A DNA stretch of 52,754 nt from Nanobdellota archaeon (GTDB lineage: Archaea > Nanobdellota > Nanobdellia > Woesearchaeales > JAHWHD01), in contig JAYENX010000003.1 of the NCBI GenBank assembly GCA_034722435.1, positions 1 to 52,754 of the forward strand, read 5' to 3'. A model generated the notes under the pieces. The model was not told the DNA's origin. It was given only the letters and a program-made list of their open reading frames with translations, and did no database searches. Below, piece by piece: positions 16,955-45,983 of the stretch. Each line of letters opens with the position of its first letter. The first letter of the stretch is position 1. The translations under genes were made by a program, and so were the position numbers.

Positions 16955-16970
16955 CGCATAAATTTATAAA
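16955..16970 (+). promoter_or_regulatory. Archaeal BRE/TATA promoter of rpl15e, implying a leader of about 170 nt
   Basis: cgcataaa-tttataaa; GGAGG RBS before ATG 17165. Confidence 0.55.
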
Positions 16971-17027
16971 TGACTTGCTGAATTCACTGTATATTGCAAT
17001 GTGGGCAGTAGCTTGCCTGAAGCAAAA

Positions 17028-17130
17028 GAACCCTTTCGTTTGTTGTTACATTTTTATTAATTTAAATGTAGCATCAAGGATTGTCTGACGAATAGCATTT
17101 TGGCTCACTGGCCAATATTGGCAAGGGTTT
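17028..17130 (+). ncRNA. Structured intergenic element, copy 1 of 3 (unknown family)
   Basis: Closing stem gaaccctt/aagggttt; internal hairpin tgttacattt/aaatgtagca; core aatagcattttggctcactggccaatattggc shared with 44805..44836. Confidence 0.6.
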
Positions 17131-17164
17131 TTTAAATTGAGAAAACAATGGAGGCTAAGTTAAA

Positions 17165-34758: not shown

Positions 34759-34917
34759 AGTTTTTATAGTGTTAATATGAAACCCTCTCGCTCACAGCAT
34801 TCGTTTTATTCATTTAATTAATTACGAATGCGTCTTTCTGTCTTACGAATAAATAACGTGTTCGCTGGCCGAGTTAGGCAAGGGTTTCATATTAGCAGTT
34901 TTTATAGTGTTAATATG
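34759..34917. repeat. Exact 21-bp direct repeat (34759..34779 and 34897..34917) bracketing structured element copy 3
   Basis: agtttttatagtgttaatatg read twice. Confidence 0.9.
34771..34896 (+). ncRNA. Structured intergenic element, copy 3 of 3 (diverged)
   Basis: 16-bp closing stem gttaatatgaaaccct/agggtttcatattagc; hairpin gcattcgt/acgaatgc; 3' core aataac..tcgctggccga.gttaggcaagggttt. Confidence 0.5.
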
Positions 34918-44665: not shown

Positions 44666-44675
44666 ACTTATTTTT

Positions 44676-44848
44676 ATAGAAAGTATCTCGTTCGCCTGCT
44701 CGAATTGTAAGTGATTTGATAACAGATAATCTCACATCAATACTATTTTACTCGAACTGTGTTCGAGCAATGCTCAGTAATGAATTATGTTTCCGACCAT
44801 TACAAATAGCATCTTGGCTCACTGGCTAATGCTGGCGATACTTTCTAT
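44676..44848 (+). ncRNA. Structured intergenic element, copy 2 of 3
   Basis: Perfect 12-bp closing stem atagaaagtatc/gatactttctat; hairpin ctcgaac/gttcgag; core 28/32 identical to copy 1. Confidence 0.6.
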
Positions 44849-44909
44849 TAAGCTTCTAAAACCATAAACCTTATAAAATTCAATTTTTATTCTTCATCCA
44901 GGTGGTTAA

Positions 44910-45983
44910 ATGTCGTTATTCAAAGATATTCTTTCAAGCAATGAATCTCTTTTCATTAATCCTGTAGCTCTTGATTATGATTACCAGCCAAAACTTGTAC
45001 CGTATAGAGAGAGTCATCAAAAAAGGATGGTTGTATGTATTAAACCTTTATTTAGTAAAACTAATGGTAGAAATCTTTTAATATTTGGTCCTCCTGGCGT
45101 GGGTAAGACGGTAGCGTGTAAGCATGTGATTCAGGAACTTGAAGAGGAGACTGATGATATTATTCAGTTTTATATTAATTGTTGGCAGATTAATTCGACC
45201 TATAAAATTTATGTATATCTTTGTGAGCAGTTAGGGCATAAATTTATACAGAATAAAAAGACTGATGAACTTTTTAGAATTTTGAAACATGATTTGAATA
45301 AAAAATCTGTTGTGTTTGTTTTTGATGAAGCTGATAAGCTTGAAGATTTAGATTTTCTTTATACTATACTTGAAGAAATATATAGGAAAAGTGTTTTTTT
45401 GATTACAAATTATAAAGGGTGGGTTGATAGGATTGATGAACGTGTTAAGTCTCGTCTGGTGCCTGAGATGTTGGAATTTGCTCCTTATACAGGTGTAGAG
45501 ACTAGTGGTATATTGAAAGAAAGGATTAAGTATGCTTTTGTTCCCGACATTTGGAATGATGATGCGTTTTCTTTAGTGGCTGAGAAGACATTACGGATGA
45601 AAGATATAAGGAGTGGTATGTATCTTCTTAAAGAATCTGGTCTGGCTGCAGAGGATGAAAGTTCGCGGAGTATCTGTATAAATCATGTGAAAAATGCTGT
45701 ATCTAAGCTTGATGAGTTTACTATCAAGAATTCTGAAGACTTAGAGGACGAAACTCATTTTATTCTTGATATAGTGAAACAAAACTCTGGTAATAAGATT
45801 GGGGATTTGTTTAAGATTTATAATAAGGCTGGTGGTGGTCGAGGTTATAAATATTTTCAACGTCGTATAGCTAAGCTTGAAGGGAGTAAGTTTGTTTCTT
45901 TGAAAAGGGTTCAAGGAAAAGATGGAAATACAACTTTAATTACTTATATTGGTGACAAAGTTAAAAGGTTAAGTGATTTTTAG
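44910..45983 (+). CDS. cdc6: Cdc6/Orc1 replication initiation protein
   Basis: YQPKLVPYRE, GPPGVGKT, YINCW, VFDEADKL, RVKSRL, FAPYT, C-terminal winged helix. Confidence 0.9.
   Translation: MSLFKDILSSNESLFINPVALDYDYQPKLVPYRESHQKRMVVCIKPLFSKTNGRNLLIFGPPGVGKTVACKHVIQELEEETDDIIQFYINCWQINSTYKIYVYLCEQLGHKFIQNKKTDELFRILKHDLNKKSVVFVFDEADKLEDLDFLYTILEEIYRKSVFLITNYKGWVDRIDERVKSRLVPEMLEFAPYTGVETSGILKERIKYAFVPDIWNDDAFSLVAEKTLRMKDIRSGMYLLKESGLAAEDESSRSICINHVKNAVSKLDEFTIKNSEDLEDETHFILDIVKQNSGNKIGDLFKIYNKAGGGRGYKYFQRRIAKLEGSKFVSLKRVQGKDGNTTLITYIGDKVKRLSDF

What the first reader, a model, noticed from the sequence alone, without database searches (positions are those of the whole stretch)
17028..17130. Unknown structured element family, copy 1, in the rpl15e leader
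Seen: three intergenic loci (17028..17130, 34771..34896, 44676..44848) share one architecture: closing stem, then TCGY, a variable hairpin-rich interior, AATARC, a hairpin containing TCRCTGGCYRA, then GC(A/G) and the closing stem. Copies 1 and 2 are 28/32 identical in the core (hand count), while their closing stems differ in sequence (gaaccctt/aagggttt versus atagaaagtatc/gatactttctat). Kept pairing with changed sequence is what a structured RNA would show. G-U wobbles mostly favour the + strand. I could not match it to any riboswitch or ribozyme I know. This copy lies between a BRE/TATA and the rpl15e RBS, so it is probably transcribed.
Basis: partly seen in the sequence, partly recalled or inferred. 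Interest (0 to 1): 0.8.

Follow-up and report, generated by a model that had tools for sequence, protein, structure and literature searches.

The report
Strand-polar folded mobile DNA element
The three look-alike stretches are copies of a small mobile DNA element of tiny Woesearchaeota-type archaea; it keeps a four-helix fold by strict Watson-Crick pairing and almost always sits on the same replication strand, so it behaves like selfish hairpin DNA and not like a regulatory RNA of the ribosomal protein gene.

Summary
The three loci belong to a family with 14-15 copies in this 1.3-Mb genome and 43, 26, 10, 3, 2 and 1 copies in six other genomes of the same order; 144 further genomes gave no match. 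On 79 distinct copies a 26-pair fold (P1 closing stem, P2, P3, P4 around an invariant junction) is 94% paired and 24 pairs covary.

The RNA reading is not supported.
- No Rfam family matches.
- G-T pairs are rare (22 of 1899 cells, against 43 A-C).
- Copies lie sense or antisense to neighbouring genes, which have unrelated functions.
- Some copies carry 9-bp flanking direct repeats.
- Sister genomes show empty sites.
- In three genomes 66 of 70 copies lie on the G-rich replication strand, whatever the local gene direction.

I read it as a non-autonomous mobile element recognised as folded single-stranded DNA, like REPINs or IS200/IS605 ends. It differs in leaving duplications, and the richest, complete genome has no Y1, TnpB, DDE, rve or RT gene.

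Copy 1 is an insertion into a conserved rpl15e leader. The scan noted similar strand-polar hairpin repeats in other DPANN genomes. Claims on G001 and G002 rest on unpublished genomes.

The parts
17025..17133 (+). Copy 1, whole element, inserted in the rpl15e 5' leader
   Evidence: Covariance model R1, 83 bits, E 1e-12; coordinates
17025..17035 (+). Copy 1, P1 5' arm (pairs with 17123-17133)
   Evidence: all 10 P1 pairs covary across 79 copies
17036..17044 (+). Copy 1, junction TCGT plus the 5' strand of P3
   Evidence: Invariant T11 C12 G13 Y14 T15 C16. Y14 covaries with R84 (T-A 59, C-G 12). Positions 17-19 pair with 79-81
17045..17072 (+). Copy 1, P2 hairpin (GTTACATTT / AAATGTAGC)
   Evidence: P2 is 92% paired and 6 of its 7 pairs covary across the family
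17083..17096 (+). Copy 1, conserved interior motif GTCTGACGAATAGC (family consensus GTCTTACGA)
17105..17110 (+). Copy 1, TCACTG: 3' strand of P3 and the junction
17111..17122 (+). Copy 1, P4 hairpin GCCA..TGGC, stacked directly on P1
   Evidence: Covariation GCC/GGC to GCT/AGC and an A-T/T-A flip at the fourth pair
17123..17133 (+). Copy 1, P1 3' arm
34769..34897 (+). Copy 2, whole element with extended terminal inverted repeat; near-identical to copies on contigs C15 and C39
34760..34779 (+). Copy 2, left flanking direct repeat: 9-bp GTTTTTATA plus 11 bases that equal the element's 5' end
   Evidence: empty site in G001
34898..34917 (+). Copy 2, right flanking direct repeat, identical 20-mer
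44673..44851 (+). Copy 3, long variant with an extra module of about 60 nt, between a 408-aa ORF and an Orc1/Cdc6 gene
   Evidence: the same long variant sits on contig C18

Best explanation
The family is a non-autonomous mobile DNA element of 105-170 bp. Its functional form is a folded single strand of DNA. P1, P3 and P4 meet at a junction that holds nearly all the invariant bases: TC-GY-TC on the 5' side and TC-RC-TG-GCC..GGC on the 3' side, including a fixed T-C/C-T mismatch pair. Stem sequences are free to vary as long as they pair. An unidentified enzyme probably recognises this shape, as integron integrases recognise attC and Y1 transposases recognise IS200/IS605 and REP hairpins. Insertion is coupled to replication, so the TCGT..TCACTGGCC strand ends up on the G-rich strand, which is the template of the lagging strand. 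Fresh insertions are flanked by short direct repeats, usually 9 bp. Shown here: the fold and its covariation, Watson-Crick-only pairing, the strand polarity, the flanking repeats, the empty sites and the patchy multi-copy distribution. Inferred: the single-stranded intermediate, the coupling to the fork and the existence of a dedicated enzyme. Copy 1 is one such insertion, landed in the transcribed rpl15e leader. Any effect there on the mRNA would be a by-product.
For: Fold: 26 pairs, 94.4% paired, 24 covary, slid controls about 40% paired. P2 and P3 were found by a pair scan independent of the model. Pairing chemistry: 1768 Watson-Crick, 22 G-T, 43 A-C and 66 other cells, i.e. no wobble tolerance on the + strand. 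Strand polarity: orientation matches the sign of the replication component of GC skew in 38 of 39 copies in G074, 13 of 13 in this genome and 15 of 18 in G004. This includes contigs where most genes run the other way (G074 C2, C13, C20). Not tied to transcription: divergent context 15, antisense-tandem 14, sense-tandem 5, convergent 3; neighbours are unrelated genes. Mobility: three near-identical copies with 9-bp flanking repeats in this genome. Seven of 40 G074 copies have end-adjacent repeats of 9-19 nt, against 3.5% of mismatched control pairs reaching 9 nt anywhere. Empty sites: copy 2 in G001 and copy 1 in about 27 same-order genomes. Distribution: 7 of 151 genomes, 1-43 copies each. The invariant core with variable ends is the reverse of a transposase-bound terminal repeat. 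Both strands fold well as DNA, z -1.7 to -3.9. Precedent for strand-polar single-strand transposition: PMC5027513, PMC6006769.
Against: No mobilising enzyme was found. G074, which is 100% complete and has 43 copies, has no match to DDE_Tnp_1, Y1_Tnp, the TnpB zinc ribbon, rve, Transposase_mut or RVT_1, and no repeated ORFs in the roughly 700 kb read. Known single-strand transposons (IS200/IS605, REPINs) make no target duplication, yet duplications are seen here and their length is not constant (9, 12, 16, 19, 20). Most copies show no clear duplication. The excess of A-C over G-T hints, weakly, that the complementary strand may be the one that folds. Orthologous copies in two species keep the fold through many compensatory changes. 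A purely selfish element does not explain that, which points to a benefit to the host or to gene conversion.
Confidence: 0.55

Rival explanations
1. It is an ordinary cut-and-paste MITE moved as double-stranded DNA by a DDE transposase that makes a 9-bp staggered cut. The strand bias would come from targeting of replication forks (as in Tn7 with TnsE) or from later selection.
For: Terminal inverted repeats plus 9-bp direct repeats in six or seven copies. This genome has DDE_Tnp_1 and rve ORFs on small contigs. A census reports a Woesearchaeal genome among the archaeal genomes densest in MITEs (PMC11602168).
Against: The terminal repeats differ completely between copies in one genome while the interior junction is invariant. 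Internal helices P2, P3 and P4 covary, which a double-strand mechanism does not require. No element with the same ends and an ORF, and no orphan half-sites, were found in this genome. G074 lacks the transposase families tested. Repeat length is variable.
Confidence: 0.2
2. It is a structured RNA (a small RNA gene or a cis-acting leader or UTR element). Its genes would be co-oriented with replication like rRNA and tRNA genes, and it would spread by some mobile route.
For: Strong covariation in four helices. The + strand is co-directional with replication. Copy 1 and several others lie in transcribed leaders a few tens of nt before an RBS. Orthologous copies keep the fold.
Against: G-U makes up 1.2% of cells, is rarer than A-C and is far rarer than other mismatches. 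In the same locus the true rpl15e leader hairpin does show U-G variants. Fourteen of 37 G074 copies are antisense to both neighbours, some filling the whole spacer (13 and 7 nt) and leaving no room for a promoter. No common regulon. No Rfam match. No reverse transcriptase in carrier genomes.
Confidence: 0.1
3. It is a host-serving single-stranded DNA site, for example a docking or priming site on the lagging-strand template or another replication or segregation signal. It would have been spread by transposition and then kept by selection.
For: Near-absolute strand polarity in three genomes. The fold is maintained in orthologous copies across species with many compensatory changes. Stems are better kept (93% Watson-Crick) than the decay of flanking repeats would suggest. 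No transposase is in sight in G074.
Against: Only 7 of 151 same-order genomes carry it, so it cannot be essential. Copy number varies from 1 to 43. Spacing is irregular and clustered. No partner protein has been identified.
Confidence: 0.15

Closest known systems
REPINs / REP-BIME elements with RAYT (TnpA-REP) Y1 transposases of bacteria (PMC3116915, PMC3333891, PMC6006769)
   Same: Short non-coding intergenic hairpin DNA in tens of copies. The fold is kept by compensatory changes. The element is inherited vertically for a long time. It is thought to act as folded single-stranded DNA.
   Different: REPINs are simple doublets of a 20-40 nt palindrome with a conserved 5' tetranucleotide, and they make no target duplication. 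They come with a single-copy Y1 gene. Here the fold is a four-helix junction, duplications occur, and no Y1 gene was found in G074. RAYT subclasses were not seen in archaea in the 2018 survey (PMC6006769).
IS200/IS605 insertion sequences and their ORF-less derivatives (PATEs of Haloquadratum, PMC3119063)
   Same: Ends are recognised as DNA secondary structure, insertion goes into the lagging-strand template, and orientation is strongly polarised relative to replication (PMC5027513).
   Different: Those elements have separate subterminal hairpins, no terminal inverted repeat closing the whole element, no target duplication and a specific 4-5 nt target. They need TnpA-Y1, which is absent from G074.
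Integron attC sites
   Same: Structure is conserved while sequence varies. Unpaired or mismatched bases are fixed. The site is recombined as a folded single strand and is sensitive to the replication strand (PMC5371416).
   Different: attC sites have conserved R''/R' boxes (GTTRRRY) at the paired ends, lie in arrays next to an integrase and carry cassettes. Here the ends vary, copies are dispersed singly, and flanking repeats differ from site to site.
Classical prokaryotic MITEs (Correia/CREE, ERIC, RUP; census in PMC11602168)
   Same: Size, intergenic location, terminal inverted repeats, target duplication, insertion into leaders and gene ends, and co-transcription with neighbours.
   Different: Classical MITEs keep the terminal repeats of a parent IS and let the interior drift. 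This family does the opposite, and in addition it is strand-polar.

Membership tests
Any Rfam 15 RNA family | Score at or above the family's gathering threshold | tested here: not met
   0 matches in the whole window. With permissive filters the only hits are chance-level (mir-7360, 26 bits against a threshold of 47) for copy 1, and there are none for a G004 copy.
Structured regulatory RNA (riboswitch, ribozyme or leader) | G-U pairs tolerated in helices on the transcribed strand | tested here: not met
   22 G-T against 43 A-C and 66 other mismatches among 1899 cells.
Structured regulatory RNA (riboswitch, ribozyme or leader) | Constant sense orientation and position relative to a related set of genes | tested here: not met
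   Antisense-tandem 14, sense-tandem 5, convergent 3. Neighbours include rpl15e, transglutaminase, Orc1, DNA ligase, aminotransferase, eIF6 and MazE.
Classical MITE | Small, non-coding, with terminal inverted repeats | tested here: met
   105-170 bp, with P1 of 10-19 bp closing every copy.
Classical MITE | Target-site duplication of fixed length | tested here: inconclusive
   9 bp in 2-3 copies of this genome and 4 copies of G074. Repeats of 12, 16, 19 and 20 nt occur in four others, and none is detectable in most copies.
Classical MITE | Terminal repeats shared with an autonomous IS in the same or a related genome | tested here: not met
   No ORF-bearing element and no orphan half-site with these ends in this genome. 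Terminal repeats differ among copies.
IS200/IS605-derived element (PATE) or REPIN | Y1 HUH transposase (Pfam Y1_Tnp) in the genome | tested here: not met
   None in G074, G004, G001 or G041. This genome has only a 78-aa fragment on C24. A TnpB zinc ribbon occurs only in G001.
IS200/IS605-derived element (PATE) or REPIN | Insertion without target duplication | tested here: not met
   Flanking direct repeats are present.
IS200/IS605-derived element (PATE) or REPIN | Orientation polarised with respect to replication | tested here: met
   66 of 70 copies lie on the G-rich strand in three genomes.
Integron attC | Conserved R''/R' boxes, arrays of cassettes beside an integrase | tested here: not met
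   GTTAGGC occurs only in the copy-2 subfamily. Ends are variable and copies are dispersed singly over at least 12 contigs.
Retroelement-derived (SINE-like) | Reverse transcriptase available in carrier genomes | tested here: not met
   No RVT_1 match above threshold in five carriers. The one weak hit is a Trm5 methyltransferase.

The most novel reading that the evidence does not exclude
DPANN archaea may harbour an undescribed class of mobile DNA. The elements would be recognised purely as a folded single-stranded junction and inserted strand-specifically at the replication fork by an enzyme unrelated to Y1/HUH, DDE or tyrosine transposases (or by a host replication or repair enzyme). They would leave about 9-bp duplications and be kept by their hosts over long periods. 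That would be an archaeal counterpart of the REPIN-RAYT partnership, built from different parts.
Probability: 0.3. Interest if true: 0.8.

Novelty: new variant of a known kind. Interest (0 to 1): 0.6.

Why it matters
Small hairpin repeats are well studied in bacteria but hardly at all in archaea, and RAYT-type enzymes were not found in archaea in a dedicated survey. This family gives unusually clean computational evidence for three things: a shape-defined element (four covarying helices around an invariant junction), pairing rules typical of DNA and not RNA, and near-absolute replication-strand polarity in three genomes from different families. It also comes from a complete genome without any recognisable transposase. 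That makes the question of which enzyme moves such elements in DPANN archaea directly testable by phyletic profiling and by binding assays with the folded junction. It also warns against annotating such repeats as riboswitches or small RNAs on covariation alone. In practice, the element's orientation can serve as a marker of replication direction in fragmented DPANN assemblies.

Tried and rejected
- tRNA or permuted tRNA: ARAGORN finds none, and there is no T-loop.
- Known ribozymes and riboswitches: no Rfam match. A hammerhead-like CUGACGA in copy 1 is not conserved.
- H/ACA or C/D sRNA: no ACA or box motifs after the stem (reading).
- Autonomous partner: a search for the terminal repeat and for half-elements in this genome found nothing.
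- Enzyme among neighbours: clustering ORFs within 2.5 kb of 79 copies gives only housekeeping genes. A small paralogue family near some copies turned out to be Lrp/AsnC regulators and pilins.
- First wide pattern scans: too loose, giving almost only chance hits in GC-rich bacteria and viral contigs. Only one Woesearchaeota MAG contig was real.
- Tighter pattern: 7 true metagenome contigs and no viral contig.
- Which strand folds: DNA folding energies do not tell.

Full report
**What is there**

A longer pattern found two more copies in the same genome, and looser searches brought the number to 14-15. In the window the copies lie at 17025-17133, 34769-34897 and 44673-44851, all on the + strand. 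Rfam 15 has no match at gathering thresholds in the whole window. With permissive filters on copy 1 and on a copy from another genome there were only chance-level hits. No tRNA was found.

**Distribution**

A covariance model (R1) was built from 22 copies, with only P1 and P4 given as structure.
- It finds the element in 7 of 151 genomes of the same order: this genome (14 copies), G001 (10), G002 (2), G004 (26), G013 (1), G041 (3) and G074 (43).
- It also hits one public Woesearchaeota MAG contig and seven metagenome contigs.
- None of the viral contigs screened was a true hit.
- The spread is patchy, multi-copy and specific to a lineage.

G001 and G002 are unpublished genomes. Their copy numbers, the empty sites in G001, the possible relic in G002 and the orthologous-copy comparison below rest on them.

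**The fold**

I realigned 79 distinct copies to the model and scanned all column pairs. This recovered P1 and P4 and revealed two helices that were not in the model.
- P2 is a hairpin right after the 5' junction.
- P3 is a long-range helix. It pairs the bases after TCGYTC with the bases before TCRCTG.
- P3 contains a fixed 2x2 pyrimidine mismatch (T-C and C-T).

For the full 26-pair structure:
- 94.4% of cells pair, against about 40% when the 3' partners are slid.
- 24 pairs change on both sides.
- 581 cells carry double changes, against 175 in shuffles (0 of 500 shuffles reach the observed value).

Nearly all invariant bases sit at the junction of P1, P3 and P4. Stem sequences vary freely, and one genome holds at least six unrelated P1 sequences.

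**DNA, not RNA**

- Pair chemistry: 1768 Watson-Crick, 22 G-T, 43 A-C and 66 other cells. A neutral mix of transitions and transversions would give this spectrum with no tolerance for wobble pairs. The + strand has fewer wobbles than its complement.
- Gene neighbours are functionally unrelated: rpl15e, a transglutaminase-like protein, Orc1/Cdc6, CYTH, DNA ligase, aminotransferase, EamA, eIF6, MazE and others.
- In G074, 15 copies lie between divergent genes, 14 are antisense between tandem genes, 5 are sense and 3 lie between convergent genes. Some fill the whole spacer, leaving 13 and 7 nt. In this genome the tandem contexts split 4 sense to 2 antisense.
- No reverse transcriptase is present in five carrier genomes.

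**Mobility**

- Copy 2 and the copies on contigs C15 and C39 are near-identical. They have an extended terminal inverted repeat and are flanked by direct repeats: GAATAAGTA, GGAATAATT and, for copy 2, GTTTTTATA within an identical 20-mer at 34760-34779 and 34898-34917.
- In G074, 7 of 40 copies have end-adjacent direct repeats: 9 nt in four copies, and 12, 16 and 19 nt in three. Only 3.5% of mismatched flank pairs share 9 nt anywhere.
- The site of copy 2 is empty in G001.

**Copy 1 and the rpl15e leader**

In about 27 of 30 same-order genomes rpl15e is preceded by the following, in order:
- a TATA box (TTTATAAAT-like);
- a conserved hairpin motif, ATGTGGGYAGTNGCTTRCCTGAA (window 16999-17022);
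- 15-40 nt further on, the RBS AATGGAGGCT.

The element sits between that hairpin and the RBS only in this genome and in G074, and the two copies have different P1 and P2 sequences. G001, of the same genus, has no element there. It is, however, an insertion into a pre-existing leader and not the leader's own structure.

**Strand polarity**

In G074 all copies on a contig point the same way. For 20-kb blocks I separated the coding and the replication components of GC skew: I averaged the skew of + strand genes and - strand genes, both measured on the + strand.
- The sign of this replication component predicts the orientation of 38 of 39 copies in G074. This includes contigs whose genes mostly run the other way.
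- It predicts 13 of 13 copies in this genome and 15 of 18 in the fragmented G004.
- The strand written TCGT..TCACTGGCC is the G-rich strand. By the usual reading, that strand is the template of the lagging strand.
- One G074 contig block with near-zero skew holds copies in the order -, +, +, as expected at an origin. I did not confirm an origin there.

**Persistence**

Two copies of this genome have orthologues at the same gene junctions in G001. Between orthologues P2 is wholly replaced, and P1, P4 and the Y14-R84 pair carry double compensatory changes. Both versions still fold completely. Either the fold is under selection in place, or copies are overwritten by gene conversion.

**The enzyme is missing**

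- G074 is 100% complete and has 43 copies. It has no match to DDE_Tnp_1, Y1_Tnp, the TnpB zinc ribbon, rve, Transposase_mut or RVT_1.
- The roughly 700 kb of G074 that I read holds no repeated ORFs.
- Genes next to or between copies are housekeeping genes.
- This genome has a few DDE and rve ORFs on small contigs and a Y1 fragment, but nothing with the element's ends.

**Interpretation**

The best reading is a non-autonomous mobile element recognised as a folded single strand and inserted in a replication-strand-specific way. The closest known systems are REPINs with RAYT, IS200/IS605 ends, and attC sites (PMC3116915, PMC5027513, PMC6006769, PMC5371416). It is not a member of any of these:
- it makes target duplications;
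- its carriers lack Y1 genes;
- its ends are variable;
- it is dispersed and not arrayed.

It also inverts the classical MITE pattern of conserved ends and a free interior. I found no description of it in the literature I could search. A MITE census only notes that a Woesearchaeal genome is among the archaeal genomes densest in MITEs.

After I had reached the strand-polarity result, I found that earlier notes of this scan report similar strand-polar hairpin repeats in other DPANN genomes. They agree with this report but are not independent evidence.

Noticed in passing
window 16963-17022 (TATA 16963-16971; hairpin motif 16999-17022): A conserved rpl15e leader. A TATA box and the hairpin motif ATGTGGGYAGTNGCTTRCCTGAA precede the RBS in about 27 of 30 same-order genomes. 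The stem covaries (GGC/GCC, GGT/ACC, GGGGA/TCCC) and shows U-G variants. It is a candidate ribosomal-protein autoregulatory leader and is not in Rfam.
   Followed up: partly
G074 loci L106:749-910, L088:16791-16955, L083:142-304, L116:6373-6535, L114:7354-7507: A second, smaller hairpin element (TCAGAAAT..ATTTCTGA, CATGATCA, TAAAT..ATTTATGAC) is nested inside copies of this family, in the P4 or P2 loop.
   Followed up: no
window 44745-44799; contig C18 copy (L044:1537-1705): Copy 3 and one other copy share an extra internal module of about 60 nt with its own hairpin (CTCGAAC/GTTCGAG), so the family is modular.
   Followed up: no
G000 contig C9:15268-15375 (L045:1501-1608): This copy sits exactly between two convergent genes. 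The TGA at each end of P1 (TGAAAC..GTTTCA) serves as the stop codon of both genes. The same arrangement is kept in G001.
   Followed up: partly
G000 contigs, whole genome: Thirteen of 14 copies lie on contigs whose + strand is the G-rich strand, and only one lies on the roughly 440 kb of negative-skew contigs. With arbitrary contig orientation, about 39% would be expected there. Unexplained.
   Followed up: no
G002 locus L504, about 50 nt upstream of rpl15e: At the place where copy 1 sits in this genome, G002 has GAACCTTTT, then 14 nt, then AAAAGG. This resembles a bare P1 stem and may be a deletion relic of the element (unpublished genome).
   Followed up: no
G000 contigs C19, C43, C49, C53 and C24:36091-36219: DDE_Tnp_1 and rve transposase ORFs lie on very short contigs, and there is a 78-aa fragment of a Y1 transposase. 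None shares ends with the element.
   Followed up: partly
window 44910-45983: An Orc1/Cdc6-type AAA+ gene lies directly downstream of copy 3. I did not examine whether an origin lies nearby.
   Followed up: no
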